Shown here in pieces: positions 1,958-38,500 of a DNA stretch of 51,081 nucleotides. The position numbers and the translations under genes are program-made. Under the pieces are notes generated by a model. The model had not been told where the DNA came from. It did no database searches and saw only the letters and a program-made list of their open reading frames with translations. Source of the DNA: a virus (lineage: Duplodnaviria; Caudoviricetes); IMG/VR virus record IMGVR_UViG_3300037722_000278, positions 1-51,081 of that record; one strand, given 5' to 3'. Numbering within the stretch: position 1 is the stretch's first letter; each line of letters starts with the position of its first letter.

Positions 1958-1964
1958 ATAGTAG

Positions 1965-2339
1965 ATGTCACTCTCCAACTTCCTTGAGACTGCCCTGTGT
2001 AACCATCTTCGGGGCGGGACTGCGTACACCCAGCCGACGAACCTTTATGTGAAGCTCCACTTGGGTGATGCGGGCGAGGCTGGCACTGCCAATGCTGCGG
2101 CTGAGACGACTCGGATTGAGGTGACGTTCGGCGCTCCGTCTGACGGGGTCATGCTGAACGACGCCGAGGTTCTCTGGGAGGCGGTGTCGACGACCGAGTC
2201 TTACACCCATTTCTCTGTCTGGGATGATGTCTCGGCCGGGAACAACCTGGGTGCTGGGGCTCTCGGGGCAACGGTGGAGATCACTGCCGGCGAGGATGCC
2301 AGGTTCGCTGTCGGCGCCTTGTCCTGGACGTTCGCCTAA
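1965..2339 (+). CDS. Tail/virion structural protein
   Basis: SNFLE.AL.NH....AYT.P..LYVKLH.GD.GE pattern common in phage tail-associated proteins. Confidence 0.7.
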   Translation: MSLSNFLETALCNHLRGGTAYTQPTNLYVKLHLGDAGEAGTANAAAETTRIEVTFGAPSDGVMLNDAEVLWEAVSTTESYTHFSVWDDVSAGNNLGAGALGATVEITAGEDARFAVGALSWTFA

Positions 2340-2354
2340 CCGGGGTAGTCCCCG

Positions 2355-4841: not shown

Positions 4842-5545
4842 TGGCTGCTACTAACCGATTGTTCGTCGACCTCATTTCGGGGACACTGTCTGCTGACCCT
4901 GGCGTGTCTGGCACCACTCTCGACGGGGCTTTCCTCGCTGACCTGCCCGTGGTCGCCGACCCGGATTTCATTGCTCTGACGATTGACCCGGAGGCGGCTG
5001 ATGGGGATCCTGAGATCGTCTGGGTGACAGTCCACTCTTCGGCTGCGACCTCGGCGACGGTCCTCCGTGAACAGGAGGGCACGACTGAACGTGCGCATGA
5101 TTCGGGTACGAAGGCGATTGCTGGCCTGACGGCTGACGGTCTCACCTCGGCGATCCGTTCGCTCTACCCGGTCGGATCGATCTATTTCAATGCGAGCGTC
5201 GCTACCAATCCGGGCACCCTGCTCGGGTTCGGCACTTGGGCAGCCTTCGGCGAGGGACGGGTACTGGTCGGACTGGACTCTGGCGACACCGACTTCGACA
5301 CTGTCGAGGAGGAAGGCGGCTCCAAGACCCAGGCGACTCACGTTCACGAGGTTGACCCGCCCATCACGACCAGCGCCATCGAAGCTCAGACTCAGGTATC
5401 CGCTGATTCGGGCAACGACAATGGTGTTGCTGTCGACGATCACACGCACACTGTCAACATCGCCCCTTTCAACTCGGCGGCAGCAGGTGACGATTCGATT
5501 GTCCAGCCATATGTCACTGTCTACATGTGGAAGAGGACTGCATGA
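4841..5545 (+). CDS. Tail fibre/baseplate protein with Gp10-C/tail-collar-like domain
   Basis: TAATG-coupled start at 4841; motif LYPVGSIYF...NP..L.GFGTW..FG.GRVLVG...QPY.TVYMWKRTA. Confidence 0.75.
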   Translation: MAATNRLFVDLISGTLSADPGVSGTTLDGAFLADLPVVADPDFIALTIDPEAADGDPEIVWVTVHSSAATSATVLREQEGTTERAHDSGTKAIAGLTADGLTSAIRSLYPVGSIYFNASVATNPGTLLGFGTWAAFGEGRVLVGLDSGDTDFDTVEEEGGSKTQATHVHEVDPPITTSAIEAQTQVSADSGNDNGVAVDDHTHTVNIAPFNSAAAGDDSIVQPYVTVYMWKRTA

Positions 5546-24181: not shown

Positions 24182-24517
24182 TCATACCGGGGGCCCTCCG
24201 ATCAGGCTCTTGTGAGGGTCGAAGGTCCGGTCACCCTTGTAGGTGAACCATTCCATCGCCTCGTGCTCTTCGGCTCGCCTGGCGAGAAGGAATGCCTCTC
24301 GGACCAGCCGCTCCTCGGTGAGGGGTTCAGCAAGGAACGCTGCCGTGGAGTCGAGTACGACTTCCCTGGTCGGGTCGTAGGCGTCGACGGTGAGGAAGGC
24401 CCAGTTGAGATGGAGGATTGCTGCTCCGTCTCCGAACCGGTCGAGGTGGTAGCGGAGCTTCCACCCAGGCTTATATTCGACCTGACCCAGGATCAGATCG
24501 ATCTGCCCGGGGTTCAC
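24182..24517 (-). CDS. Conserved-looking phage hypothetical protein (YKPGW...E.HE..EWF...G.R.FDPH)
   Basis: Motif pattern typical of an actinophage family; GTG start at 24517 inferred. Confidence 0.6.
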   Translation of the reverse strand: MNPGQIDLILGQVEYKPGWKLRYHLDRFGDGAAILHLNWAFLTVDAYDPTREVVLDSTAAFLAEPLTEERLVREAFLLARRAEEHEAMEWFTYKGDRTFDPHKSLIGGPPV

Positions 24518-24602
24518 TGCCGCACTTCGGTGAGGGCAGCCATGGCGAACAGGACTATCAGAGCGATGACCAGCATCCATGGCTCTTCGGGGAGTCGTGG
24601 CC

Positions 24603-24896
24603 TCATGATGTGGCCCGACGCCGACGTATGGCAGCCTTCCACCGGCGCTTGAGACTCCGATACAGGGGAACGGACGAGCCATATCCCGAGTCGACGTCGA
24701 AGCCCAGCCGGATCGTGGTCTCCTGGAACAGGCGATGCTTCGCCTTCGCAGCGAAGAAGTCGCCTTCGAGCTGGCCCAGCATGCACTGAGTCGTGAGCTG
24801 CATGTCGAGAGAGTCGAGGTCGATGGCGTCAGGCCATCCTGGATAGTGCTCGTCGAGGAACTTGATTCCCTGACGAATATTGGGGGCGATGGTCAT
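24603..24896 (-). CDS. Hypothetical protein (G...LD...PGW...IDLD.LDM.....C.LGQL.G)
   Basis: CCCACAAGGAGG RBS; recognisable actinophage family pattern. Confidence 0.65.
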   Translation of the reverse strand: MTIAPNIRQGIKFLDEHYPGWPDAIDLDSLDMQLTTQCMLGQLEGDFFAAKAKHRLFQETTIRLGFDVDSGYGSSVPLYRSLKRRWKAAIRRRRATS

Positions 24897-25135
24897 TTCC
24901 TTGTCCTCCTTGTGGGTGAGGTCGGCAGGTCAAACAACCTGCCAGTGTTCGGGGTCGGGACGCCATGGTCACGGCAGTAGACCCGACCGGTGTACTTCTT
25001 CTGTCTGAGCGTGCCCGCCCCGCCCGTCCGAGTGACCTGCTCGACGCCGGTCAACTCCCGGAACGAGTAGGGCTGGTCGGGGGAAACCGGTGCGCCACAA
25101 GTGACACACAGGCCAGCGACAGCCTTGTACTCCAT
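24893..25135 (-). CDS. Zinc-finger hypothetical protein
   Basis: CxxC...CxxH. Confidence 0.5.
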   Translation of the reverse strand: MEYKAVAGLCVTCGAPVSPDQPYSFRELTGVEQVTRTGGAGTLRQKKYTGRVYCRDHGVPTPNTGRLFDLPTSPTRRTRK

Positions 25136-25467
25136 TACGGTTTCCTACCTTCCTCGTAGCATGACCAGCATTTGCCGTTCCTGGTCTGAGTGCGTGGTGC
25201 GGTAACCCCGCAGGCGCATTCGACTCCGGCTCGCTGTTCGATGCTGAGGCCGGCGACGACACCAGGGATGGTGGGTCCGACAGGGTCGGTCATCACCCAG
25301 CGTCTGCACGGTTCCAACACCGGACAACTACGGCAAAGAGATTTGGCAGCGGGAGTGTTGCCTTTGACGGCGAGCCAGGTCTTGCCTAGGCAGGCAGCAT
25401 GCTCCTGCCATGGGTCGAGGTCGAGGGCAGGGTCCGTGCGGGACCCTGCCAGTTCGACCATGGTCAT
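25135..25467 (-). CDS. whiB: WhiB-family transcriptional regulator with extra C-terminal Cys cluster
   Basis: WQEHAAC...AKSLCRSCPV...C...GVVAGLS; additional CAC..CWSC. Confidence 0.85.
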   Translation of the reverse strand: MTMVELAGSRTDPALDLDPWQEHAACLGKTWLAVKGNTPAAKSLCRSCPVLEPCRRWVMTDPVGPTIPGVVAGLSIEQRAGVECACGVTAPRTQTRNGKCWSCYEEGRKP

Positions 25468-25772
25468 TTGTCGAAGACCACGACGTGGACTACGGCCTCG
25501 TCCTGGGCTGGGTCGCCGTTGGCGCCCTGGTACAGGAACACGGTGGGCACACCGTCGTCTGACCCGCCTGACGGGTTCAGGTAGATGTACTCGGTCGAGC
25601 CGCTGTCCTTCTCGGCACGCCAGCCTCCCAGGATCGGGTAGTAGGTCACGCCGCTGTCGACGTCGAACACCTCTTCGACGTCGAACACGGGGAAAAAGTC
25701 CTCGCCGTGGGTGGTCGCTGCCAGGTTGCCAGCGTCCTCTAGGTGGTGGTCGTCCCTGTAGAGACGCTCCAT
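25464..25772 (-). CDS. Hypothetical protein (YIYLNPS..SDDGVP.VF.Y)
   Basis: Preceded by the structured repeat and RBS. Confidence 0.65.
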   Translation of the reverse strand: MERLYRDDHHLEDAGNLAATTHGEDFFPVFDVEEVFDVDSGVTYYPILGGWRAEKDSGSTEYIYLNPSGGSDDGVPTVFLYQGANGDPAQDEAVVHVVVFDK

Positions 25773-25778
25773 GTTTGT

Positions 25779-25838
25779 CCTCCTTGTGGGTTGTGGTGCG
25801 AACGCACCAGGAGGGGCACCGTGGGTGCCCTACCTGCT
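25779..25838 (-). repeat. Structured intercistronic element copy A
   Basis: AGC-AGG-TA-GGGCACC cac GGTGCCC-CT-CCT-GGTGC gttc GCACC-acaa-CCCACAAGGAGG. Confidence 0.85.
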
Positions 25839-25866
25839 GTGTTCAGCGGTCTGGATTGTCAGCCCC

Positions 25867-26010
25867 CTACCCCGTAGGGTGGGGGCCGGGTAAACCAGGA
25901 TTGGTGTTGGGAGGCACTTCGTTGCCGTCACTGGTTACCACCCCCTCTGGTCCGTACGGCAGCGCTTCGGCGCTGCCGCTTAGGACAAGGACTAGTAGAA
26001 GCCAAAGCAT
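25867..26010 (-). CDS. Small putative secreted peptide (47 aa)
   Basis: MLWLLLVLVLSGSAEA|LPYGP...; RBS supplied by element B. Confidence 0.5.
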   Translation of the reverse strand: MLWLLLVLVLSGSAEALPYGPEGVVTSDGNEVPPNTNPGLPGPHPTG

Positions 26011-26020
26011 TTGCTATCGC

Positions 26021-26084
26021 CCTCCTTGTGGTTTGTGGTGCTGACTGCACCAGGAGGGGCACCCGTGAGGATGCCCTACCTGCT
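26021..26084 (-). repeat. Structured intercistronic element copy B
   Basis: AGC-AGG-TA-GGGCATCC tcac GGGTGCCC-CT-CCT-GGTGC agtca GCACC-acaaa-CCACAAGGAGG. Confidence 0.85.
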
Positions 26085-26331
26085 ACAGACCGAAGTCTTC
26101 GAACATGGCGGCAGCGCCGTCCATGTCATCGCCGAGAAGGTCGTACAGGGCGCCGATGGCAGGATCTGCCACCAGTGCCCCGTGTCTCTCTCCGAACGCT
26201 TCACAGCCTCGGACTCGGACGTCTGCGGACACGATGGCGTAGGTCGAGCCGTCGGCTTCGGCGTAGTCGTGGATGTAGTCGTTGTCCCATGGCTCGGAAC
26301 ACTGCGGGCATCGAATGTCCATCACAGCCAC
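26083..26331 (-). CDS. Hypothetical protein (DI.CP.C.EPWD...L...LGDD.DG...M.ED)
   Basis: Phage-family-like motif pattern; start may be 26322. Confidence 0.65.
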   Translation of the reverse strand: MAVMDIRCPQCSEPWDNDYIHDYAEADGSTYAIVSADVRVRGCEAFGERHGALVADPAIGALYDLLGDDMDGAAAMFEDFGL

Positions 26332-26753
26332 CTGGTGGGATCGTCACCGAAGTGACCGGCCAGGGCGTCGAGGATGTCGACACCATGCTCGGCGATCAGG
26401 ACGTCGTACTTCCAGCCTGTCAGAACTGGATTGCCCTGGCCGTCCTGCATCCGACTGGCGATCTCGGGCATGCCTGGCTTCCAGGCGTACTCGGTCTGCG
26501 GCCAGTCATAGCTCCCGCCATCGTTGGCGGTGAAGGCGACCTCGTTCTCGATCAGGAACTTGACTAGCTCCTGAATCCCTTCGTCTTCGTCGAAGCCGTA
26601 GTAGGCCTCTTCGATCACAACCTCGAACCTCTCGGGGCTGTTCTCGTCGTAGGAACTTCCGGCCTCGTCGGCTAGTTCCACGATTCGAGCGTGGACGTCC
26701 TGGCTGACACCTTCCATGCTGAACGTCATTTCGACGTAGCTGCGCTCACCCAT
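26322..26753 (-). CDS. Hypothetical acidic protein
   Basis: ATG 26753 follows the RBS of element D. Confidence 0.65.
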   Translation of the reverse strand: MGERSYVEMTFSMEGVSQDVHARIVELADEAGSSYDENSPERFEVVIEEAYYGFDEDEGIQELVKFLIENEVAFTANDGGSYDWPQTEYAWKPGMPEIASRMQDGQGNPVLTGWKYDVLIAEHGVDILDALAGHFGDDPTRWL

Positions 26754-26758
26754 CTGTT

Positions 26759-26822
26759 CCTCCTTGTGGGTATTGGTGCTGGTAGCACCGCCAGCCCCTG
26801 CGTTTAAACAGGGGTAGGCGCT
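26759..26822 (-). repeat. Structured intercistronic element copy D
   Basis: AGC-GCC-TA-CCCCTG tttaaacg CAGGGG-CT-GGC-GGTGC tacca GCACC-aata-CCCACAAGGAGG; stems fully compensated relative to A/B/C. Confidence 0.8.
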
Positions 26823-26827
26823 GTCAC

Positions 26828-27403
26828 CTAGCTCGGCCACATGACCTCGCCATCAGGGCATGACGGGTTGCCGACCTCCAACCATTTGGCCGTGGTCCGC
26901 ACCGTGTAGCCGCAGTCCAGACACTGGACTTTCAGCATCCGGGTCGACTGCTTCGGCCCCATAGCCTTCGGGTCGATCGCAGCATGAGGGAAGACCCCCA
27001 GGTCGCCTGCGACCTTCGTCAGATACTCCGTCAGCTTCTCCCCGGCGTGAGTCGAAGTGGGTTTGCCTTCCAGGCCTAGCTCTCGCATGCCCCGGGAGAA
27101 GGCTCCGCCATGCTTCGTGCCCGGAGGCAATGCGGCATGGAGGATTTCGTGTACCAGGGTGGCCAGGATCTCGACGGGGTCACCTAGGACCGGGCTGATG
27201 AAGAGTTGTGGGATCTCGTCGGCAGTGTTCGTGCCATACCAACACTGTCCGATAGTCCGGTTCTTCACGCTGACGGCCTTACGGCTGGGCCAGCCGACCG
27301 AGACTCGAACCTCGGGCATGTCGTATCCGGCGCCCTCGAAGAGTGTGGTGAGGGTCGTGGTGGCTTCTGTCAGCCACCCCTCCCGGTTGAGTGTCGTGGT
27401 CAT
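26828..27403 (-). CDS. SprT-like zinc metallopeptidase
   Basis: GQCW, LVHEILH...HG..F and C-terminal CxxC...CP. Confidence 0.8.
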   Translation of the reverse strand: MTTTLNREGWLTEATTTLTTLFEGAGYDMPEVRVSVGWPSRKAVSVKNRTIGQCWYGTNTADEIPQLFISPVLGDPVEILATLVHEILHAALPPGTKHGGAFSRGMRELGLEGKPTSTHAGEKLTEYLTKVAGDLGVFPHAAIDPKAMGPKQSTRMLKVQCLDCGYTVRTTAKWLEVGNPSCPDGEVMWPS

Positions 27404-27516
27404 GGCCGGTCTGCAAACGTCACCGATGCAACGAAGTAACCGATGGCCTCAAGAGCCTTCTGGATCTCGTCGGTGTCGATGGCGTCAGGGTCCGATGTGT
27501 AGACGACTATGTCCAT
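27400..27516 (-). CDS. Hypothetical protein (38 aa)
   Basis: RBS from element C; ATGA overlap with the SprT-like gene. Confidence 0.55.
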   Translation of the reverse strand: MDIVVYTSDPDAIDTDEIQKALEAIGYFVASVTFADRP

Positions 27517-27523
27517 CTCTGTC

Positions 27524-27584
27524 CCTCCTTGTGGGTGTGGTGGTGTGTCCACCAGGAGGGGCACCCGAAGGTGCCCTACCTGCT
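27524..27584 (-). repeat. Structured intercistronic element copy C
   Basis: AGC-AGG-TA-GGGCAC cttcgg GTGCCC-CT-CCT-GGTGG acaca CCACC-aca-CCCACAAGGAGG. Confidence 0.85.
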
Positions 27585-27586
27585 AG

Positions 27587-27841
27587 TCACAGGAAAGCGT
27601 CGAGGTGATGCCCTTCGACGATGGCCGATGCAGGCGCCGAGACCTCGCCACGCCATGAGATCCCCTCGGGGAGATCGATCAGGCGGTCGTAGTCCTCGTC
27701 GCCGAAGGCTGAGATCGCCTGCTTGCACGGGTCGATCATGGTGCTGGGCACCGGTGGGAAGTGGTTGGATGACAGGTGCCATCCGAGTGCAGTGTCGAGG
27801 TCGGCGACCTCGGCCATGCCCATGGCGGACAGGAGGCCCAT
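27587..27841 (-). CDS. Hypothetical protein (WHL..NHFPPVP...C..AI...AIVE.HHL)
   Basis: Pattern typical of actinobacterial phage early genes. Confidence 0.7.
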   Translation of the reverse strand: MGLLSAMGMAEVADLDTALGWHLSSNHFPPVPSTMIDPCKQAISAFGDEDYDRLIDLPEGISWRGEVSAPASAIVEGHHLDAFL

Positions 27842-27981
27842 TATCGGACCTTCGTCTCGGCCAGAAGCCGACGCTGAGACCTGGGCGAAACGAGCCAGAT
27901 ATAGGCTCGGCCACCCAGTTCCAGGAATTGGATCGGAATACGACCCTTGGCTGCCAGACTGGCAAGACCAGGAGTGTTCAT
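27841..27981 (-). CDS. Hypothetical protein (46 aa)
   Basis: RBS from element E; TAATG overlap. Confidence 0.55.
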   Translation of the reverse strand: MNTPGLASLAAKGRIPIQFLELGGRAYIWLVSPRSQRRLLAETKVR

Positions 27982-27986
27982 GTTGT

Positions 27987-28049
27987 CCTCCTTGTGGACA
28001 GGTGCGGAATCACACCACCAGGCCCACCAGTGACGATGGGCTAGGCGCT
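27987..28049 (-). repeat. Structured intercistronic element copy E
   Basis: AGC-GCC-TA-GCCCATC gtcact GGTGGGC-CT-GGT-GGTGTG attc CGCACC-tgt-CCACAAGGAGG. Confidence 0.75.
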
Positions 28050-28053
28050 GAGA

Positions 28054-28191
28054 TCAGATCGAAGTGATCGTGACGGCCCGGGGATACCTCGTCCCCATGA
28101 TTCTGAAAGCCATGTCCAGGTCGAGGGCCTGAATCTCGTTTATCACGCTGACCCATGTCCCGTGATGCGCCCTCATCTTGAAAGTTCTCAC
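28054..28191 (-). CDS. Hypothetical protein (45 aa)
   Basis: GTGA overlap with upstream gene; stop abuts element E. Confidence 0.4.
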   Translation of the reverse strand: MRTFKMRAHHGTWVSVINEIQALDLDMAFRIMGTRYPRAVTITSI

Positions 28192-28466
28192 AGAACGTCG
28201 GTCAGCTTGGCGACCACCGCCCGTGCCTCGGGCGGGGTCATAAACAGGTGTGTCTCCCCGATGGTCAGGTAGACCTTCCCGTCTTGGACGACGCCCGAAT
28301 TGACTCGCCGGGGCATGGTGTTCTTGCGAGGGTGGATGTCAACCGATACGAACGCACTGGTGCCTCCGTCGGGGTCGAGTTCAAACTCTCGGACATGGAC
28401 GGTGTGCTGGTCGTCGTGCGTCTCGTAGGCGGTGCCTGGCGAGCCGTAAAGGCTGCGTGTTTCCAT
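28188..28466 (-). CDS. Hypothetical protein, first early gene
   Basis: CCACAAGGAGG RBS before ATG 28466. Confidence 0.65.
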   Translation of the reverse strand: METRSLYGSPGTAYETHDDQHTVHVREFELDPDGGTSAFVSVDIHPRKNTMPRRVNSGVVQDGKVYLTIGETHLFMTPPEARAVVAKLTDVL

Positions 28467-28863
28467 GATGTCCTCCTTGTGGACAGCCACCGGCTGATGC
28501 CGGTAGGCCACCAGACCCCTCAGGTCTCACACGGTTTGAGCGATGCCAGAGGAGTCTGATGGCCCACCACCATGGGCCTAGTACAGGGCAGAGCATCAAG
28601 CCGTGATCTGAGCGCCAAGGTCCAAGCGCTAGGGCGCCGTCCATGTGCGTCTTGCCTTGCAGATGCCGTCGTATCCGTCAACTGCCCTGTACTAGGCCCA
28701 CCAGAGATGGGCCTCAAAGAGTTCATTCACTTGCCCCCAGCCTCGCTCGCCACGGACATCACCTGCCAAAGGCCTGAGAGAATCCCGACTCGTCGCCATC
28801 ACCACCCACTCGGGCCGTAGCGTACGCCGGACCTTGCCCCCGTATGTGCCGGGGTCAACCCCG

Positions 28864-28893
28864 ACTGTACAGCGACCAGTCCAGAACTGTCAA
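28864..28893 (-). promoter_or_regulatory. Sigma-A-type early promoter TTGACA-N18-TACAGT
   Basis: Consensus -35 and near-consensus -10 at the head of the early arm; spacer contains GACTGGTCG. Confidence 0.75.
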
Positions 28894-29683
28894 GGGCTGT
28901 GACCAGGGCTTATGCACCCATTCGTGGACTAGTCGGCCAGACTGACGCCGTAAGTAGGCACCAGAGTCGCCACCCGAGCGCAGAGCTTAGTACCCTGCAC
29001 CACGCAGTACCATGCACCACACGATACCCATGCGTGTCAGCCTCAGTGCTCAGGGTGCGGCTCAGTCACACTGTATTGGTGAGTGCTGCCGCATGCACAG
29101 TACCTGGCACTGCATGGTACTGAGCAGAGGGTGCCAGGGTCCACTCACTGTCCAGTACGTGGAACAGCGAGGTCGTGGAACCGTGCCAGCCACGAGGACG
29201 GCTCCCAGGCGGAAACCACCCCCCACCAGGCCTGACGGGGGACCGGGGTCCATAAGGTCGCCGTGCGACGCTATGGGGAAGGGCACGTAGTGGTGTGGCG
29301 TACAGGTTGCTCTGGGCTTTGTGCGGTTTCTGTGTCCGTAGTCTGTGTCTCTTGTGTGCTCGAGCCGCCGCAGGCGGCGTTCGAGCCTGAGTCTAGGTGC
29401 TGGGACCACGCCCACCCCTTCGCTGCCTCACCGTTTTTTCTGACATCGATGTCAGTTCTGGTCGTGATCACCATCATGTTGGTCTGTTCCAGCGTTTTTC
29501 GAGACATGGCTGGTCTCTGCCGTCTGACGGGCTGCTGCCGGGGCCCAGCCGGCTTCGGACTTGCGTCCTACTCGAGCGTCTGATCGTCTGTCGGCTTGCG
29601 TGGGGCGCCGGGGAGACCCTTGTCAGTATCCGCCCATGGAGCGACGAGACGCAACCGGCGGGTTGCACGTTCGTGTACCTCGT

Positions 29684-29700
29684 TGACACTGTTTGGGGGG
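29684..29700 (+). promoter_or_regulatory. Putative late promoter motif TGACA-N6-GGGGGG at start of RNA cluster
   Basis: Matches the bipartite motif. Confidence 0.55.
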
Positions 29701-29778
29701 CTTAGAGAAGAGCCGCTAAGGCTCCTTGTGGGAGCCGAGCCCTCTACGGGCCGGCACCGGGCGGTAAATCCCGCCCTT

Positions 29779-29846
29779 AAGTCTCGCACCGGGTGCGGGC
29801 TGGCCTCCAAAACCGGCCTTGCGGGGTTCGACACCTCGGGGACTTG
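29779..29846 (+). tRNA. tRNA-Trp(CCA)-like with reduced D-arm
   Basis: AAGTCTC/GGGACTT acceptor; CTCCAAA anticodon loop; CGGGG-TTCGACA-CCTCG T-arm; D-arm only GCAC-cgg-GTGC. Confidence 0.65.
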
Positions 29847-30030
29847 CTAGGACGAGAGAGACCTGCGCCCATCAGCGTGGTTCGTCCGCCGGAGTGATGC
29901 CCGTGCGCCTCTCGACCGAAACAGGCCACCGTCCAGGTGAGCTGAGACTGACGAAGGAGCCTATTCGGGCTCTCGAATCGGTCTCCACTCCTCACCTGGA
30001 CACCGGTCTGGACCTCCCCTCCACCCCAGA

Positions 30031-30050
30031 ATTGGGAACCTGTCAGCTAA
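30031..30050 (+). repeat. 20-bp element ATTGGGAACCTGTCAGCTAA (copy 2)
   Basis: Exact reverse complement of 15446-15465. Confidence 0.85.
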
Positions 30051-30080
30051 TTCGTCCTGATAGGGGTATGAGCACTGTGT

Positions 30081-30097
30081 TTACGCTGCCAGGGTGG
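30081..30097 (+). promoter_or_regulatory. Putative late promoter motif TTACG-N6-GGGTGG upstream of structured RNA
   Basis: Exact match to the motif core. Confidence 0.65.
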
Positions 30098-30103
30098 CTT
30101 ATG

Positions 30104-30560
30104 AGACACCCGATTAGGCGGACGCCGGCGGCACCGGCGGCCAGATGGGCGAACTGATCTAGCAGTGTGTGGTGTGTGAGCCCGGGATAAACGCTCCTGG
30201 CAGCCTCGCCAGATGGGGCACCTTCGGCCGGAAGGTGGAGTGTGAAGCCCGGGCCCGGCACGTTGACAACATGACGCAACTCGAGCTGAGTTGCAGGTGG
30301 TTGGTAAAGAGTCAGGAGGGAGACACCCCTCTGACCAACGGTGAAAGGCTTTTTATTGGGCTAGGTACCCAGGGTCATATAGCCGGATGAGGGGCAGCGG
30401 TGAGTGCTGCGGAACGGAGTGGTCTCCGGGCCGGTGGCTCCTGACTCTTTACGAGCCTCCTGCGACCCTGTATCCACGAGGGGGGTCGTATTGATAGATG
30501 ACTGCTATGCCTGGTGAGAAGTGGATCGAGCAGTCGCTTGACCCCAGCAGGGGGCTCGCA
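30104..30560 (+). ncRNA. Putative large structured ncRNA
   Basis: Perfect 15-bp stem 30304-30318/30438-30452; nested stems, pseudoknot and kissing-loop complementarities; no credible ORF. Confidence 0.55.
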
Positions 30561-30565
30561 CAGGT

Positions 30566-30643
30566 TGGATTCACCGCTTGGGGTGATAGGGCACCGTAAC
30601 CATCCGGGCCTTGAAGAGGGGAGTTCGAGACCCCCGAATCCAC
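30566..30643 (+). tRNA. tRNA-like element / pseudo-tRNA (anticodon unclear)
   Basis: TGGATTC/GAATCCA acceptor and GGGAG-TTCGAGA-CCCCC T-arm; anticodon arm enlarged. Confidence 0.4.
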
Positions 30644-30696
30644 GCAGGAGTCCCCCATCCGATCGGCGGGTCGCCCCCGAGGGGGCTCCAGCATTT

Positions 30697-30769
30697 GCCG
30701 AGGTAGCTCAGTGGCAGAGCACCGGGCTCATAACCCGGATGTCGTGCGGTTCGACTCCCACCTTCGGCT
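30697..30769 (+). tRNA. tRNA-Met(CAT)
   Basis: GCCGAGG/CTTCGGC acceptor; TAGCTCAGTGGCAGAGC D-arm; CCGGG-CTCATAA-CCCGG anticodon arm; T-arm with a 1-nt bulge. Confidence 0.85.
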
Positions 30770-30871
30770 CGGCGAGCCCTCAACTGGGTAAATAGCGGCG
30801 GTGGAAACCCTCGCCGGCTGGAACCCTCCCGCCACCGACATGGCGGGCCTGTCGGGGATAGGGCTCGCCTT

Positions 30872-30944
30872 ACCCCGGTCTGTCTAACTGGTAGGACGCC
30901 AGGCCCTGAACCTGGAAGTGGAGGTTCGAGTCCTTCCTGGGGTG
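30872..30944 (+). tRNA. tRNA-Gln(CTG)
   Basis: ACCCCGG/CTGGGGT acceptor; CCAGG-CCCTGAA-CCTGG anticodon arm; GGAGG-TTCGAGT-CCTTC T-arm; C at position 33. Confidence 0.75.
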
Positions 30945-30974
30945 CGGCCGGTGTATGACCCCGTTCATCCGGGG

Positions 30975-31031
30975 CGGCCGGTGGGCTTCTGGTTGATGTA
31001 GAACAGGAGGGTCCGATTCCCTCCCGGCCCG
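30975..31031 (+). tRNA. D-armless tRNA-like element
   Basis: GGCCGG/CCGGCC acceptor; TTCTG-GTTGATG-TAGAA arm; GAGGG-TCCGATT-CCCTC T-arm. Confidence 0.35.
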
Positions 31032-31039
31032 CTAGGTCT

Positions 31040-31056
31040 TGTCGCCCCTCGGGTGG
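31040..31056 (+). promoter_or_regulatory. Putative late promoter motif variant TGTCG-N6-GGGTGG before terminase
   Basis: In-frame GTG at 31063 lies 6 nt downstream. Confidence 0.55.
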
Positions 31057-31062
31057 ACGTAT

Positions 31063-32964
31063 GTGCATGCCTCCGTCTCGAAGATGTCCGTCGACCGCCG
31101 CATCGACGCAGCCATCTCCAAAGTGCTCGACACCGGATGGACCCAGTCTGAAGCCGCCCGCCACTACGGGATCAACCGTTCCAACCTGAACCGTCGGATC
31201 AAGCCGATCCGACAGCAGCGTGAAGCCAACGAACTCCGAGCTGCCGAAGAACTCCTCGCCGGCACACGCCAGCCTCTCATTCAAGAGACTCGACGTGTCG
31301 GCACCTTCGCCGAGTTCGAAGAGCGGTATTTCGGAGAGCTGATCTGCCCGGACTGTCAGGTCCACCATGAGACGCCCGAGTTCCACAAGGAGATCGCCGA
31401 GGCGATCGACTCCGACGCCCGCAGGATCCTCATCAACCTGCCCCCCTACCACTCGAAAAGCACGCTGGTAACTGTCAAACACACCGTCTACGACATTGCC
31501 AAGAATCCGAACTCCCGGACCATCATCGTCTCCAAGTCCGGGCCCTTCGCCAAATCCTTCCTCCACGCCATCAAGTCCTGGCTGTCGGTCGAAGAGCTGT
31601 ACCAGAACACGCAAGGCAACCTGATCAAGGACTTCGGCCCGTTCATGCCCGAGAACGAAGGCTGGTCCCAGTACGAGATCTACGTCCAGAACCGTCACAT
31701 GGCCGGCGGCGTCGAGAAAGACCCGACCGTCCTGTCCATGGGCTATGGCGGGCAGATCTACGGCCGGCGTGCCGACAAGATCAAGTTCGACGACATTGCC
31801 ACGCTCGAGAACCAGCGGAACCCCGAGCGTGTCGCCCAGATGATCGAGTGGCTCAACAAGGAGGCTCTGTCTCGTATCGGGAAGAGCGGGCAGGCTGTCT
31901 GGGCTGGCACTCGAGTCGCCCCCGGCGACATCTACTCGGTGCTGATGAACCGGCCCGGGTACAAGGTCATCAGGTATCCGGCGCTCATCGACGACGAACA
32001 CGAGCAGGTTCTCTGGCCGGAACACTTCCCCTACGAACAGGTACTCGTCCACCGGTCTGAGATGAGTCCCGCCGACTTCCAGCTCGTCTACCAGAACGTC
32101 GATGTCCCCGGTTTAAACGCCTCCTTCACTCAGGAGATCCTCGACGAGGCGAAAGACACTGATCGTCAGTTCGGTCACTACGAGACCGGATGGCGTCTCA
32201 TTGCCGGGCTCGACCCGGCCGGCGGGACCAAGGGGTCCGGGTATACGGCCCTCGTCTTGCTGGCTATCGATCTGAACACGGGGAAGCGGTTCGTCGTGGA
32301 CGCTGTCGCCGAGAAGGCGATGAAGGCGCCCCGGCTCAAGCAGCTCATGTTCGAGTGGACCGACCGCTACCCGATCTACGAGTGGCGTGTCGAGTCGAAC
32401 GGGCTCCAGTCGCAGCTCGTCCAGTACAACGAGGAGATCATCCAGCATCTCGCCAAGCGTGGCGTCAGGGTCATCCCCCACCAGACACATTCGAACAAGT
32501 GGGATCCCGAGTTCGGGGTCGAATCCATCGCCCCGCTCTTCTATGCAGACCTGGTCTCTATCCCGTGGGCTGGCGTCCAGTCAGCACAGAAGTTTCAGCG
32601 GCTCATCGAAGAGTTCGTCGCCTTCCCGATGGGGATCACCTCCGACCTGGTTATGGCTTTCTGGTTCGCCGACCTCGGGGCTCGAGACCTCCTACGCCGG
32701 GCACACCTTCCCATGTTCAACGAGCGGCTGCGGAAACGGTGGCCGAAGCGGATCCGATCCAGAGCCCGGGTCGTCAACTTCGAAGACCAGTCAGTCAGGC
32801 CAGTCTCCATGGAAGACCAGCGTCTCGGCCACATGACTCGGGGGCAGCAGGGCTACCGCAGGATGACTGTCGGCACCCCCACTCCGCACGGGTCTGTCCG
32901 TGAGTTCGAGGCTGAGCCTGTCGAGAAGCCGATGAATATCGACCCGAAGATCTGGACGCCCTGA
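31063..32964 (+). CDS. terL: Terminase large subunit with N-terminal HTH
   Basis: INLPPYHSKST (Walker A), GRRADKIKFDD (Walker B), GTR, GLDPA and DLVMA nuclease motifs; start is 31063 or 31084. Confidence 0.92.
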   Translation: MHASVSKMSVDRRIDAAISKVLDTGWTQSEAARHYGINRSNLNRRIKPIRQQREANELRAAEELLAGTRQPLIQETRRVGTFAEFEERYFGELICPDCQVHHETPEFHKEIAEAIDSDARRILINLPPYHSKSTLVTVKHTVYDIAKNPNSRTIIVSKSGPFAKSFLHAIKSWLSVEELYQNTQGNLIKDFGPFMPENEGWSQYEIYVQNRHMAGGVEKDPTVLSMGYGGQIYGRRADKIKFDDIATLENQRNPERVAQMIEWLNKEALSRIGKSGQAVWAGTRVAPGDIYSVLMNRPGYKVIRYPALIDDEHEQVLWPEHFPYEQVLVHRSEMSPADFQLVYQNVDVPGLNASFTQEILDEAKDTDRQFGHYETGWRLIAGLDPAGGTKGSGYTALVLLAIDLNTGKRFVVDAVAEKAMKAPRLKQLMFEWTDRYPIYEWRVESNGLQSQLVQYNEEIIQHLAKRGVRVIPHQTHSNKWDPEFGVESIAPLFYADLVSIPWAGVQSAQKFQRLIEEFVAFPMGITSDLVMAFWFADLGARDLLRRAHLPMFNERLRKRWPKRIRSRARVVNFEDQSVRPVSMEDQRLGHMTRGQQGYRRMTVGTPTPHGSVREFEAEPVEKPMNIDPKIWTP

Positions 32965-35111: not shown

Positions 35112-35518
35112 TGGCTGACCAGTCGATCGAGAAAACTCCGATGGCCGGCACCTCCGTAAATAAGCCCGAGAGCGGGACTTACGGAGAGAAGGCGGATCTC
35201 GCCAACCTCCAGCAGAGTTTGCCGCCCATGGGCCCGGGCGGTGGTGCCGAAGGCGGGCCTGCTCCCATGCCTCAGCCGTCGCCGGCCATGCCTGGCCGCC
35301 CCGGCGGGAGGCCCATGAACGCTCCCGCAGGCGTCCCCGACGTTCTTCTTGGCACGGAGGATGCGGCGACGCCGGCAGCCGCTCCGAACGCTCCTGGAGC
35401 CTCCCCGGAGGCTGCACGTCTCGCCCTGCTCGAGCAGCTTGCCTCTTCGACCGAAGTGTCGGAGACGACTCGTGCGTGGGCTCGCCTCGTCTTGGAGTCC
35501 CTGAGTGGTCCTCGATAG
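35111..35518 (+). CDS. Pro-rich virion-associated protein
   Basis: TGATG-coupled to portal; YGE...L..LQ motif. Confidence 0.6.
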   Translation: MADQSIEKTPMAGTSVNKPESGTYGEKADLANLQQSLPPMGPGGGAEGGPAPMPQPSPAMPGRPGGRPMNAPAGVPDVLLGTEDAATPAAAPNAPGASPEAARLALLEQLASSTEVSETTRAWARLVLESLSGPR

Positions 35519-38500
35519 GGGCGGGCTGCCTGATGTGGCCCTCGAAGAGGAGCCCCGCTCGGGTCTGATCGATCAGGCTCAGGAGGGCGGGCTTGGCGGG
35601 CTGGCCACCGGCCTCGCCGGGATGGTCCTACCCCAGGCTGGGCTTCCTGGCCAGCGGTCCATCGGCGACGTGTTCACCGACTTCGTCGAGTTCTCCCGCC
35701 TCGGAGACGTCCTAGACCTGGGTTCTGCCCTTGACCCGAACTCGGGCCTCGACCCTCTCGAACGGCTGGTAGCCGCCGCCCCGTTCATCGGTGTCGGCGC
35801 TATTGGTGTACGCCAGGGGTACAAGCGTTACGCCGCCCGGGCCCAGCAGGCCCAGGGCGCCATGGCCCATTCGATGAACCCGCCTCAAGGCCAGGCGTTC
35901 GACCTGTCCGACCCTGGCTTCGAAGAGCTTGGTGGGATCGATCCGACCGGGACGCAGTTGCGTGAGCAGCAGGCCAAGTTCGAGCAGCTCTCCTTCGAAT
36001 CCAAATCTCCGTTCAGCCGGGGAGTCCTCCGGGCCGAATCGTGGGAAGAGCTGATTGCCACCGTCGACTCCGAGGCTGCCGTCAACCCCAACCGTCATCG
36101 GGTCGCAGACGCCGCCCTTCGAGGTGTCGGCCTGGCCGTAGTCAACAACGCACCCGACCCCACCTTGTATGGGGTCGACCCGGAGGCAGCCCAGTTCATC
36201 GCAGCCAAGGTCGCCCTCGCCAAGTGGAACCGGGCGATTGACCTGGGGCTCATTAAGGAGCCTGACCTTCGTCAGCCAGGGCTCGGATCTGGCGCCACCG
36301 AGCGGCTCCTCCAGATGATCCACCTCGAGATCGCCACCTCGGGGATTGTCGGGCCTGACCTGTCAATGCCGTCACCTGGACGGCTCGCCCGCATCGTGAC
36401 CACCGAGGGCGGCGAAACGCAGGTCATCTATGGCATTGTCGACGAACTTCTCCCGACCGAACGGGTCTTCGACTGGGATGTGATGTACCCCGTCGACGAG
36501 GGGAGGGTCCACAAGCGTCAGTCGTCACTCGACATGGAGGCGATGGAGGGGCTCTACGCCGCCAACATTGCCAAGGGTGTCCTCCAGGCTCCGCCGTCCA
36601 TGGCCGACTCGGGCCGAGGGCTCCTCGCCAAAGACCAGGGCACTTTCTACAAGGCGATGAACCAGACCGCCAGGGTGCTGTCCGATGCCACCCCCTACTC
36701 GGTGACCCAGGTGTCGGGTGTCATCTCTGGTCTCTCGTCGAATACTGCGTGGGCTCCAGAGAACCTGGTGGGCGCCGTCCATACTGTCTTGCAGACCGGC
36801 CGGCCTGACCTGGACCCCATGTCGGCCGAGTATCAGGCTCTCTTCCGTGAGGCCACGGTCGGCTCTGGGTGGGGTCAGGATCTCTTCGAGTCGTCTGGGC
36901 AGCCTGTCCGGGAGCAGTTTGAGCAGATGCCCGGAGCGCCGGGTGGGATCCCCGACTTCGAGGGTGTCGCTGGCCATTACGGCAACCCGGAGAACGTGAC
37001 CGGCCCCCACGGGATCATGGGGGCTGACGAGACGACCAAGATCGAGAAGGCCGAAATGATCCTCAAGGGGAACCTGCCTCCATGGCTGGTCCTCCGGGGG
37101 ATGAAGACGAACACCTTCTCTCGTAGCGGTGCTGACCCGTCTCTTCGGGATCTCGTCACAGTCGACCGGCATTCCGACAGACTGTCCCAGGGGTCCGTTT
37201 TCGTTACTTACCCTCTCGCACACCAGGGTGTCGTCCGTGGCGAAATCGACCCGACCCAGACCTACCACGACCCGATCACTGGTGACTCGATCACTGGTGA
37301 GGGGATCCGGGCGGCTCTCGACGCTATGGAAGAGCATGGGTGGTCACCCGAGCAGGTCATGCGTTGGAGGAAGACGCTCGCCAGCTTCCCGACCAAACAA
37401 GCTCAGGCTCGCTACCTGGCCCAGTCCCGAGCACACCTCCTCGTCCGTGACGAGCTAGGCCTGGAAACCGGTCAGGAAACTCAGGCTATGGGCTGGGCGT
37501 ACGCCAGGGAGAACATGGGGCGCACCCTCCTGGAGCGCCGCCTCTCCGAGGCGAAGACGATCGACGAGTTCAGGGCTATTGCCGAGGCTGGAACTCTCGA
37601 CCCGGCGATCTTCTCCCATCTCGAGGGAAACCCTGTGCTCGAGCGAACCGCAGCAGGGATGGTCTGGGAGGTCGACGACACTCTCGCCGGCGCCCTGCCC
37701 ACTGTCGAGGATCTGCATGCTGCTGGCAAGGGTGTTCAGCGTCCCGCTTCGGGACGTGTGACATCCTCGATTCTCGCTGTCAGAAACGCTGACGGCCGGG
37801 TCACCCCCTACGCCGACGCCACCAAGCCTGGTGTCGCCGAAACTCTCCGTCATGCCACCCCAACCGGGATCCGGGTCGGGGACTTTGAACGGTACATCTC
37901 GAACAAGCCACGCCAGGTGCTGTCCGCCCAAGACCATGTGGCTGAGGCGGGCGACTACCTGCGTGAGGACGGCCGCCAGGCGGCCGGGTTCGCCACCATC
38001 GGTATGGACCCGGCGAGCCCCGGCCACCCTGGAATGCTCCCTGGTAACCGGGCTGTCGTCCTCGTCCCCCAGGATCGAGTGTCGGACATTCAGGGCATCC
38101 TCGAGGGTGACTGGCCGCTCGAATATCAGGTCGGCACCGCCCAGGGCACCCGGCTCGGACTGAGCCGCAACAAGCTCGACGCCGAAGACCTCGCTGGCCT
38201 GACTGACGACCAGCTCGGCGAGCTGCTCAAGAACAACGACTGGGGCGCCATCTCGTCTGACAATATCGCTGGTCTGCGAGCTGACGTCCGTCGGATGGGC
38301 GGGCAGTTCATCGATGCTGAAGGGTCTTGGCTGGTCGAACCGCAGCCCACTTTCACGAACCCTACGGGTGAGCGTGTCAACCAGGAGATCGCCCAGGTTG
38401 CCGAAGAGTACATGGACCAGGCCGGGCTCGACTATGAGCCGGCACTGTTGGCTGACGAGGTCAACGAGAAGCGGGCTATGAAGATCGCCGACGCCTACGA

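What the first reader, a model, noticed from the sequence alone, without database searches (positions are those of the whole stretch)
25779..28049. Repeated, covarying two-hairpin RNA element between early genes, fused to the RBS
Seen on the minus strand: five ~60-nt copies (25779-25838, 26021-26084, 26759-26822, 27524-27584, 27987-28049). Each starts at or shortly after the upstream stop codon and ends in CCACAAGGAGG before the next ATG. Fold: AGC-[P1]-UA-[P2 hairpin]-CU-[P1']-[P3 hairpin]-CCACAAGGAGG. Stems vary with full compensation: P1 AGG/CCU becomes GCC/GGC; P2 GGGCAC/GUGCCC becomes CCCCUG/CAGGGG; P3 GGUGC/GCACC becomes GGUGG/CCACC. The UA/CU internal loop and flanking AGC are invariant, and one copy has a cUUCGg tetraloop. 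Inference: a functional cis-RNA motif such as an mRNA processing site (compare T7 early RNase III sites), an antiterminator or translational switch, or a recombination module for swapping early gene cassettes. It resembles mycobacteriophage start-associated sequences, but here structure rather than sequence is conserved.
Basis: partly seen in the sequence, partly recalled or inferred. Interest (0 to 1): 0.8.

Follow-up and report, generated by a model that had tools for sequence, protein, structure and literature searches.

The report
Two-state RNA hairpins between phage genes
The five repeats are real copies of an uncatalogued folded RNA signal, widespread in uncultivated phages of high-GC bacteria, that starts on one gene's stop codon, can refold into a small hairpin before the next gene, and probably marks where a long message is cut and stabilised.

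Summary
Observation confirmed and extended. The window is a complete 51-kb uncultivated actinophage-like genome. All five minus-strand sites fold as described. A covariance model finds exactly these five (70-86 bits; next hit 18.7). Rfam has no match.

The element is a family. It has 35 model hits on the window plus 8 IMG/VR phage contigs, 6 copies on an Acidimicrobiia MAG contig, and 60 further distinct copies on 29 metagenome contigs. P1/P2/P3 pair in 96.5-97.6% of cells against 72-76% when shuffled.

New findings:
- The 5' flank, which holds the upstream stop codon (0-12 nt before P1 in 79 of 86 copies), pairs with the 5' arm and loop of P3. This gives a long interrupted hairpin (P0-P1-P2) that excludes P3.
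- P0 is statistically supported in two data sets and is the more stable state in 31 of 34 copies.
- The CCACAAGGAGG tail is this phage's own ribosome-site consensus, not part of the fold.
- There is no U-tract, no promoter, and no protein shared by all carriers.

Best reading (0.4): an intercistronic processing and stability signal of the T7 RNase III kind, which also serves as a cassette junction. Main rival (0.25): a switch that senses translation termination. Function is untested.

The parts
27987..28059 (-). Copy A: P0 5' strand with the upstream TGA (28056-28054), P1 CGCC/GGUG, UA/CU loop, P2 GCCCAUC/GGUGGGC, P3 GGUGUG/CGCACC, tail UGU-CCACAAGGAGG; ATG at 27981
   Evidence: (70.4 bits)
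27524..27594 (-). Copy B. P0 5' strand 27594-27583 (holds TGA 27589-27587); P1 27582-27579 with 27556-27553; UA 27578-27577; P2 27576-27570 with 27565-27559, loop UUCG; CU 27558-27557; P3 27553-27549 with 27543-27539; tail to GGAGG at 27524; ATG 27516
   Evidence: 77.3 bits; 62.4 bits sense, 26.7 antisense
26759..26832 (-). Copy C: TAG 26830-26828, P1 CGCC/GGCG, P2 CCCCUGU/GCAGGGG, P3 GGUGCU/AGCACC, tail; ATG 26753
   Evidence: (80.5 bits)
26021..26094 (-). Copy D: the stop TAG (26085-26083) overlaps the conserved AGC; P1 CAGG/CCUG, P2 GGGCAUCC/GGGUGCCC, P3 GGUGC/GCACC, tail; ATG 26010
   Evidence: (86 bits)
25779..25848 (-). Copy E: P0 5' strand holds an in-frame TGA (25845-25843), while the frame's first stop is TAG 25869-25867; P1 CAGG/CCUG, P2 GGGCACC/GGUGCCC, P3 GGUGC/GCACC, tail; ATG 25772
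   Evidence: (79.3 bits)
28472..28530 (-). Possible degenerate relative: two unrelated small hairpins (the stop TGA 28522-28520 lies in the first loop) followed by the same UGU-CCACAAGGAGG tail as copy A. The model matches only the tail.
   Evidence: 18.7 bits
24905..24945 (-). Single hairpin plus the same ribosome-site consensus; not a member by the model
   Evidence: 14.6 bits
28864..28893 (-). Promoter-like site TTGACA-18-TACAGT upstream of the element-bearing genes (weak: 1 found, 1.2 expected by chance)

Best explanation
SHOWN. The sites are copies of an uncatalogued sense-strand RNA element that sits between the small co-oriented genes of one leftward gene block.
- Its resting fold is one long interrupted hairpin of roughly 20-26 pairs: outer helix P0, a G.G mismatch, a 4-bp P1, a 2x2 UA/CU loop, and a 7-10-bp GC-rich P2 capped mostly by GNRA, UNCG or UCAC loops.
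- The 5' strand of this hairpin begins on, or within 12 nt of, the upstream stop codon.
- The 3' strand of P0 can instead pair with the next bases to form a small hairpin, P3. An unstructured A/C-rich spacer and the next gene's ribosome site follow P3.

INFERRED.
- A host double-strand-specific endonuclease of the RNase III type cuts the long hairpin near its conserved irregularities.
- P1-P2 then stays as a 3' cap on the upstream message.
- The freed strand folds into P3, which becomes a 5' cap on the downstream message.
- The polycistronic RNA thus becomes separately stable single-gene pieces, as at the RNase III signals of phage T7.
- A ribosome reaching the stop codon must also open P0 and P1, which would favour P3 for a time.
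- Because the copies are repeated, they also act as points where [element + gene] cassettes are gained and lost.
For: - Fold and covariation of P1/P2/P3: 96.5% of 508 cells paired against 72.4% shuffled, 13 of 15 pairs changed on both sides, 0 of 500 shuffles as high, slid controls 40-54%. On 67 distinct metagenome sequences: 97.6% against 75.7%.
- P0 register: 6.86 of 10 positions paired in register, against 2.7-4.2 in shifted registers.
- P0 cognate test: own flank 6.86 against other copies' flanks 4.71, 0 of 50,000 permutations as high (n=37). Replicated at 7.16 against 4.89, 0 of 50,000 (n=56). On a gapless 12-sequence alignment: 70.8% against 51.1%, 0 of 500.
- The U/A in GG[U/A]G covaries with both partners: flank A/U in 37 of 37 copies and the P3 3' arm.
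- Long state more stable than the P3 state in 31 of 34 copies, mean -3.5 kcal/mol.
- Stop codon 0-12 nt before P1 in 34 of 37 and in 45 of 49 copies.
- Sense strand: the same loci score 57-69 bits sense and 21-28 bits antisense. In P1+P2 there are 16 G.U cells against 3 non-standard cells, and 29 against 6.
- None of the 5 copies has a T-run or a promoter-like site.
- No protein family is shared by all six carrier genomes compared, five of them complete (blastp 1e-4), which points to a host factor.
- P2 loops are mostly stable tetraloops, so the loop is unlikely to be read.
- 5 to 10 or more copies per genome between genes, as for T7 signals (the T7 facts are recalled, not fetched).
- Cassette junctions: in three related phages, two insertion/deletion events of [element + gene] end exactly at elements.
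Against: - No RNA data exist, so no cut, no RNA end and no transcript has been seen.
- RNase III needs no stop codon inside its substrate, so the tight anchoring on the stop codon is not explained by this reading.
- P3 is missing in 3 of 37 copies, and shorter than 5 bp in 3 more. A 5' cap is therefore not always made.
- Conserved unpaired bases (G.G, UA/CU) could equally be read by another protein.
- The energy model ignores ribosomes and proteins.
- Discovery patterns fixed part of P2, the UA/CU loop and GGUG, so the census and set 2 are biased towards the common variant.
- The blastp comparison can miss small, fast-evolving proteins.
- Only 2 of 6 block ends between contigs G003 and G006 fall at elements.
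Confidence: 0.4

Rival explanations
1. Termination-sensing switch for translational coupling. The ribosome that finishes the upstream gene melts P0 and P1, P3 forms, and this change (or the compaction of about 60 nt into two hairpins) hands the ribosome on to the next start or sets the rate of initiation there.
For: - Stop codon inside the 5' strand of P0 in 79 of 86 copies.
- P0 and P3 are mutually exclusive and both covary.
- A ribosome site follows 15-37 nt after P3 in most copies.
- Unfolding by an upstream ribosome is an accepted coupling model (abstract and passages of PMC12548453).
Against: - The ribosome site is not consistently hidden in either state: median unpaired probability 0.43, and its pairing partners differ from copy to copy.
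- The same review passage reports that structure just after the stop codon correlates negatively with coupling, and that coupling is best at short distances.
- Some G003 copies have no ribosome site behind them.
- The conserved G.G and UA/CU bases are not explained.
Confidence: 0.25
2. Passive barrier. An uncut, very stable hairpin blocks exonucleases and leaves no free RNA between genes for Rho to load, in the manner of REP elements.
For: Very stable GC-rich hairpin with tetraloops that fills the gap from the stop codon to the spacer; no U-tract.
Against: - It does not explain P3 and its covariation, or the conserved mismatches.
- Overlapping genes, which this operon also uses, would avoid the problem without any spacer.
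Confidence: 0.12
3. Binding site of a trans-acting protein (of the phage or the host) that times or represses the translation of many early genes at once.
For: Conserved unpaired bases G.G, UA/CU and GGUG in a fixed geometry; many copies in front of unrelated genes.
Against: - No protein family is shared by all six carrier genomes.
- The capsid protein is not shared (0 of 5).
- The loops are generic tetraloops.
Confidence: 0.08
4. Selfish or purely recombinational DNA repeat (of the MITE, REP, MIRU or PeSL kind) with no role as RNA.
For: - Present in phage lineages with no detectable shared proteins.
- Near-identical common variant (UAGGGCACC...GGUGCCCCU) in different phages.
- Insertion/deletion events of [element + gene] end at elements.
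Against: - Stems change freely with compensation, and wobble pairs favour the sense strand.
- No bridging reading frame as in MIRUs (0 of 5), and no attC core sites (0 of 5).
- No promoter as in PeSLs.
- No transposase-like partner was looked for.
Confidence: 0.07
5. Transcription signal: a hairpin-only terminator or attenuator, or a put-like RNA that makes the polymerase resist termination.
For: Two adjacent stem-loops in the P3 state resemble HK022 put RNAs (recalled). Hairpins without U-tails were called terminators in the phiC31 early region; only the title was seen, in the reference list of PMC2602773, and the paper is not held.
Against: - None of the 5 copies is followed by a T-run.
- Mycobacterial RNA polymerase does not terminate at hairpins without a U-tract (abstract of PMC3993855).
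- A persistent antiterminator would not be needed after every gene.
Confidence: 0.05
6. A new small self-cleaving ribozyme that cuts the message between genes.
For: Many copies in phage genomes and a few invariant unpaired bases.
Against: - Too few conserved junction bases.
- No match to any Rfam ribozyme, even at E up to 10.
- The fold is a plain interrupted helix.
Confidence: 0.03

Closest known systems
RNase III processing signals of the phage T7 early polycistronic mRNA (R0.3, R0.5, R1, R1.1, R1.3). Recalled knowledge; no T7 sequence or paper was fetched.
   Same: Several copies per genome between co-oriented genes; an irregular hairpin of about two helical turns with an internal loop; no U-tract; the hairpin left on one product can protect it.
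   Different: Here the hairpin is anchored on the stop codon and has a built-in alternative hairpin (P3). The hosts are high-GC actinobacteria-like. Cleavage is untested, and sequence likeness to the T7 sites was not tested.
Start-associated sequences (SAS) and extended SAS of Cluster K mycobacteriophages (PMC3203893; passages read)
   Same: Repeats in one orientation in front of many non-structural genes of an actinophage, next to the ribosome site; function unknown.
   Different: The SAS is a fixed 13-base sequence, and that paper reports that the inverted repeats of the extended SAS do not support RNA pairing. Here the sequence varies and the pairing is kept. The SAS motif has 2 matches with up to 2 mismatches in the window against 1.95 expected, none at the sites.
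PeSL (promoter-early stem-loop) cassettes of T4-type phages (PMC2839356; abstract read)
   Same: Small repeated regulatory units between non-essential small genes; recombination between units shuffles gene cassettes (compare).
   Different: By that abstract, PeSLs hold a strong sigma-70-like promoter and a working terminator. The elements here have no promoter-like site and no T-run. They also covary as RNA.
Intercistronic repeats of bacteria: REP/BIME (recalled) and MIRU (passage in PMC12548453)
   Same: Short repeats inside operons, just after stop codons, that form hairpins in the message.
   Different: No bridging reading frame as in MIRUs (0 of 5). The stems differ between copies with compensation. 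Found so far on phage-like contigs only.
HK022 put antiterminator RNAs (recalled)
   Same: Two adjacent stem-loops of about 60-70 nt, one with an internal irregularity, acting in cis.
   Different: HK022 has two put sites, each just after a promoter. Here there are 5 to 10 or more copies, one after each gene, anchored on stop codons.

Membership tests
Any Rfam 15 family | Match to a curated covariance model | tested here: not met
   At gathering thresholds over the whole window, only two tRNAs. At E up to 10 over 25700-28120, two chance-level plus-strand hits (E 4.5 and 7) and none on the element strand.
T7-type RNase III processing signal | Lies between co-oriented cistrons of one phage transcription unit | tested here: met
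   All five copies lie between same-strand reading frames. That they share one transcript is inferred.
T7-type RNase III processing signal | Irregular hairpin of about 20 bp or more with an internal loop | tested here: met
   P0+P1+P2 with a G.G mismatch and a UA/CU loop; the more stable state in 31 of 34 copies.
T7-type RNase III processing signal | Cut by RNase III in vivo or in vitro | not testable with these tools
   No RNA run holds the sequence.
SAS / ESAS of Cluster K mycobacteriophages | 13-base GGGATAGGAGCCC a few bases before the start codon | tested here: not met
   2 matches with up to 2 mismatches against 1.95 expected, at 8460 and 30724, not at the sites.
SAS / ESAS of Cluster K mycobacteriophages | Inverted repeats kept in sequence, without compensatory changes | tested here: not met
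   Here 13 of 15 pairs show changes on both sides. The feature itself is taken from passages of PMC3203893.
Intrinsic terminator | GC-rich hairpin followed at once by a U-tract | tested here: not met
   None of the 5 elements is flagged; the tails are A/C-rich.
PeSL cassette | Strong sigma-70-like promoter inside the unit | tested here: not met
   One promoter-like site in 24500-31200, at 28893-28864, outside the elements.
PeSL cassette | Recombination between units moves gene cassettes | tested here: inconclusive
   Two [element + gene] insertion/deletion events end at elements among G003, G006 and G008, but only 2 of 6 block ends between G003 and G006 do.
MIRU | Small reading frame through the repeat that overlaps the flanking stop and start | tested here: not met
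   0 of 5 copies.
Integron attC | Core sites RYYYAAC / GTTRRRY at the ends | tested here: not met
   0 of 5 copies.
HK022 put RNA | Binds and modifies the transcribing polymerase | not testable with these tools

The most novel reading that the evidence does not exclude
A ribosome-operated two-state junction. The terminating ribosome flips each element from the long hairpin to the P3 state. That flip gates cutting, decay or re-initiation, so each small gene's message is released and capped only once the gene before it has been translated. The same unit is a portable cassette boundary, shared by phage lineages that have no detectable proteins in common.
Probability: 0.25. Interest if true: 0.85.

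Novelty: new variant of a known kind. Interest (0 to 1): 0.72.

Why it matters
- It would add a large, strongly covarying RNA family (about 100 parsed copies here) to the few known cis-signals that organise phage polycistronic messages. It comes from uncultivated phages of high-GC soil and sediment bacteria, where almost nothing is known about message processing.
- Its two-state design, anchored on a stop codon, makes one question directly testable: how are translation, cutting and message stability linked at gene junctions?
- It gives annotators a marker for gene and cassette boundaries.
- It could serve as an insulator or processing part for synthetic operons in actinobacteria.

Tried and rejected
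- Megablast of the 3-kb region against cultured phages: no match.
- Blastn of one copy against the same collection: only chance fragments at E=7.
- First pattern (CCTGGTG...CCACAAGGAGG): 29 viral loci, none with the fold (best 21 bits).
- Related loci through the SprT-like protein: none.
- Related loci through the 102-aa protein: one extra locus, L040, without the element.
- CTCC variant of the pattern: 17 stretches, 16 of them searched with the model, none reaching E 0.01.
- Eight single viral hits of 27-38 bits from the CACC pattern were not counted as members.
- Genome contigs: of 80 loci searched, 78 gave nothing.
- Five cultured phages nearest by SprT (UtzChips, Zeta1847, Tweety19, phage 4A, Yang): 0 of 5 with a model hit at E up to 0.01.
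- Capsid protein in five carrier genomes: 0 of 5.
- No RNA holder listed among public runs; read laying was not used.
- ARAGORN on G001: nothing.
- Consistent hiding of the ribosome site: not found, inconclusive.
- Alignment A8 from model R2 mixes antisense hits and was not used for counts.
- The phiC31 terminator paper is not held.
- Literature searches for a description of such an element found none. Supplements were not consulted.
- Earlier notes of this scan were consulted only after my reading was formed.
Full report
WHAT THE WINDOW IS. The window is a whole IMG/VR virus record of 51,081 bases with direct terminal repeats, rated 100% complete. GC content is about 61-62%.
- Plus strand: a capsid protein, a weak portal match and a tail tape-measure protein.
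- Minus strand, about 9.4 to 30.5 kb: an integrase, primase-like and DnaB-like proteins, a PD-(D/E)XK nuclease, an HTH protein and an amidase, plus a WhiB-like protein (25135-25467) and a weak SprT-like match (26828-27403).
- The nearest cultured phages by the SprT-like protein infect Microbacterium and Arthrobacter, at about 50% identity.
- There is no nucleotide match among cultured phages.
- The phage is therefore an uncultivated, probably temperate phage of a high-GC Gram-positive host.

THE OBSERVATION.
- Folded singly, each gives AGC, P1 (3 bp), UA, the P2 hairpin, CU, P1', then the P3 hairpin, with the ribosome site mostly open.
- A covariance model (R1) scanned over both strands with filters off finds exactly these five at 70-86 bits. 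The sixth hit scores 18.7 bits and matches the tail only.
- Rfam gives only two tRNAs at gathering thresholds, and nothing on the element strand at E up to 10.

THE RIBOSOME-SITE TAIL IS NOT PART OF THE FOLD.
- CCACAAGGAGG has seven exact minus-strand matches. Two of them (24905 and 28472) lack the element. With one mismatch allowed there are 15 matches against 1.4 expected (sequences).
- In other carrier phages the fold is followed by other consensus tails: ACCAGGGAGG in G002, AACAGGGAGG in G007, GACAGAGAGGAG in G006 and G008.
- Some G003 copies have no ribosome site within 45 nt.
- So each phage has its own extended ribosome-site consensus, and the element simply sits in front of it.

A FAMILY, NOT FIVE LOCAL REPEATS.
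- A structure-shaped DNA pattern found a second IMG/VR contig, G001, with four full copies and a fifth cut by the contig end.
- Two further patterns found G002, G003, G006, G007, G008, G009 and G010.
- Model R1 gives 35 hits at E up to 0.001 on the window plus these eight contigs.
Of the 80 loci searched, only an Acidimicrobiia MAG contig (six copies within 2.6 kb) and one single hit passed. This also shows that a chance pattern match does not score with the model.
- A stricter pattern on metagenome contigs gave 56 stretches and 82 model hits at E up to 1e-4. After removing duplicates and copies already seen, 60 new distinct copies on 29 contigs remain. One 11-kb contig has ten or more copies, and one 8.5-kb contig has at least eight.
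- The five cultured phages nearest by SprT have none (0 of 5). Blastn of one copy against 50,697 phage records gives only chance fragments.
- Caveat: every pattern fixed part of P2 and the UA/CU loop or GGUG. The census is therefore biased towards contigs that hold at least one copy of the common variant.

COVARIATION OF P1, P2 AND P3.
- 35 sequences: 96.5% of 508 cells form standard pairs, against 72.4% after shuffling. 13 of 15 pairs change on both sides. No shuffle of 500 reaches any of the five measures. Slid partners give 40-54%.
- 67 distinct metagenome sequences: 97.6% against 75.7%.
- These alignments are fitted to the model, which favours it. The slid controls and the variety of P2 sequences (for example GCGUAGC/GCUACGC, GCGGUUC/GAACCGU, CCCCUGU/GCAGGGG) show that the signal is real.
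- P3 of 5 bp or more is found in 31 of 37 and in 48 of 56 parsed copies. Three copies in G007 have none.

THE NEW POINT: AN OUTER HELIX, P0, THAT COMPETES WITH P3. When 12 nt of 5' flank are included, RNAfold pairs that flank with the 5' arm and loop of P3 in most copies.

I parsed each copy by P1 and P2 alone, which leaves the test of P0 unbiased. I then counted pairs between flank position -1-k and position k after P1'.
- Set 1, 37 copies parsed of 38 given, from 9 contigs:
  - 6.86 of 10 positions pair in register, against 2.7-4.2 in six shifted registers.
  - A copy's own flank pairs better than other copies' flanks (6.86 against 4.71). None of 50,000 permutations reaches this, and the same holds when the three conserved inner positions are left out (4.92 against 3.16) (first run with 23 copies).
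- Set 2, 56 of 60 new copies kept (4 dropped because the parse lacked the G|C...G|G frame): 7.16 against 4.89, 0 of 50,000.
- Gapless 12-sequence alignment: the tool counts 70.8% paired against 51.1% shuffled, 0 of 500, with slid controls at 24-50%.
- P0 is thus real but imperfect. Position 0 is a G.G mismatch in 33 of 37 copies. In the three G007 copies that lack P3 it is a G-C pair.
- The base after it (U or A in GG[U/A]G) pairs with the flank in 37 of 37 copies (A-U 28, U-A 9). It also covaries with the 3' arm of P3. One base therefore answers to two partners, which is the mark of alternative helices.

WHICH STATE IS THE RESTING STATE. With P3 forbidden or the flank forbidden, the long state is the more stable in 31 of 34 copies, with a mean difference of -3.5 kcal/mol. 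In 12 of the 34 the two states lie within 2 kcal/mol.

THE STOP CODON.
- The frame that is open for at least 40 codons ends 0-12 nt before the first base of P1 in 34 of 37 copies of set 1 and in 45 of 49 copies of set 2. Seven copies of set 2 had no such frame on their short contigs.
- In 27 of the 86 copies the stop is the UAG of the conserved UAG|C.
- TGA occurs 47 times, TAG 39 times and TAA never.
- Copy E of the window looks like an exception (30 nt), but an in-frame TGA lies 6 nt before P1, at the usual place.
- A ribosome that reaches the stop codon must therefore have opened P0 and P1.

WHICH STRAND, AND WHAT IT IS NOT.
- The same loci score 57-69 bits on the gene strand and 21-28 bits on the other strand.
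- G.U pairs outnumber all non-standard cells in P1+P2: 16 against 3 and 29 against 6.
- None of the five copies has a T-run or a promoter-like site. The only promoter-like site in the region lies upstream at 28893-28864, and one such site is what chance gives.
- No reading frame bridges the flanking genes, and there are no attC core sites (0 of 5 each).
- The SAS motif is absent from the sites.
- The ribosome site is not consistently hidden (median unpaired probability 0.43).

CARRIERS AND CASSETTES.
- G003, G006, G008 and G010 are one phage group, and G002 shares a few genes with them.
- The window's phage shares no protein with any of these five at blastp 1e-4, and no family is common to all six genomes. 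The capsid protein is not found in the five either (an empty answer of limited weight).
- Only two genes of the window's leftward block have relatives in the fetched loci, and both lie next to elements. Those loci were chosen for their elements, so this carries little weight.
- Among G003, G006 and G008, two insertion/deletion events of the form [element + small gene] end exactly at elements. One element of G006 aligns with two elements of G003 that flank an extra 330 nt. G006 has an extra [element + gene] that begins at the first base of P1 and is missing in G008.
- Other block ends do not fall at elements: only 2 of 6 between G003 and G006 do.

HOW IT MOST LIKELY WORKS. Shown:
- a conserved, sense-strand, two-state RNA fold anchored on the stop codon;
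- generic stable loops;
- a few conserved unpaired bases;
- many copies per genome between unrelated small genes;
- no phage protein common to all carriers.

Inferred: a host enzyme reads it. A two-turn interrupted helix between cistrons of a phage message is what RNase III cuts in T7 (recalled). A cut near the G.G mismatch, which is also the first base pair boundary of P3, would leave P1-P2 as a 3' cap upstream and let P3 close as a 5' cap downstream. This explains the long helix, the irregularities, P3, the absence of a U-tract and the copy number. It does not explain why the stop codon must lie inside the helix.

The main rival does explain that point. In it, the terminating ribosome operates the switch to couple translation or to gate decay. 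It has no conserved helix that hides the ribosome site, and it runs against the reported negative effect of structure after the stop codon (passages of PMC12548453). The two readings can be combined; that is the novel case. The weaker rivals are:
- a passive barrier;
- a protein-binding site;
- a selfish repeat;
- a hairpin-only terminator (the abstract of PMC3993855, reports that mycobacterial polymerase needs a U-tract);
- a put-like antiterminator;
- a ribozyme.

WHAT IS KNOWN. I found no description of such an element.
- Full-text searches.
- Papers seen:
  - passages of PMC3203893, PMC5712189, PMC2602773 and PMC12548453;
  - abstracts of PMC3993855 and PMC2839356.
- Supplements were not consulted.
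- The phiC31 paper on terminators without U-tails is not held; only its title was seen.

Notes of earlier agents in this scan describe very similar 'two-state hairpins that start on the stop codon' in other uncultivated phages, with the same T7 comparison. These are unchecked AI notes, read after my own reading was formed. They are not independent evidence, and one related note is marked 'part of it fell'. A look-up by sequence found no look-alike window.

VERDICT. The element is a real, widespread, uncatalogued RNA family with a two-state design, and its function is still untested.

Noticed in passing
window 25843-25869 (-): The 47-codon frame before copy E ends at TAG 25869-25867. It has an in-frame TGA eight codons later (25845-25843), at the position where the family's stop codons normally sit. 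The TAG may be a recent premature stop.
   Followed up: partly
window 10870, 13320, 14048, 22476, 24905, 28472, 29721 (-): An extended ribosome-site consensus (C)CCACAAGGAGG precedes many minus-strand genes without the element: 15 matches with up to 1 mismatch against 1.4 expected. The bases CCAC lie beyond the stretch that, by recalled 16S 3'-end sequence, can pair with the rRNA.
   Followed up: partly
window 35505-40823 and 41136-46346 (+): Two giant reading frames (1772 and 1736 aa) with almost no family match: one weak DUF7178 hit and one PHROG of unknown function.
   Followed up: no
window 30697-30770 and 30872-30945 (+): tRNA-Met (CAT) and tRNA-Gln (CTG) genes in the divergent region between the two gene blocks.
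   Followed up: no
L038 (G001) about 1960-2420 (-): A TTGACA-17-TATAAC promoter-like site is followed by a GC-rich untranslated leader of about 450 nt, before the first element-bearing gene. The leader holds a GGTTCGATTCC stretch like a tRNA T-arm, but ARAGORN finds no tRNA or tmRNA.
   Followed up: partly
all 86 copies with a determinable upstream frame: The stop codons linked to the element are TGA (47) or TAG (39), never TAA.
   Followed up: partly
L253 4734-8938 (+); L233 235-8140 (+): Metagenome contigs with ten or more copies in 11 kb, and at least eight copies in 8.5 kb: an element after almost every small gene.
   Followed up: partly
L055 4007-4437, L091 5380-5940, L089 7777-8279: Among three related phages, extra [element + small gene] units are present or absent, with junctions exactly at elements. 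A relative of the extra G003 gene also sits right behind an element in G002 (4777-5058).
   Followed up: partly
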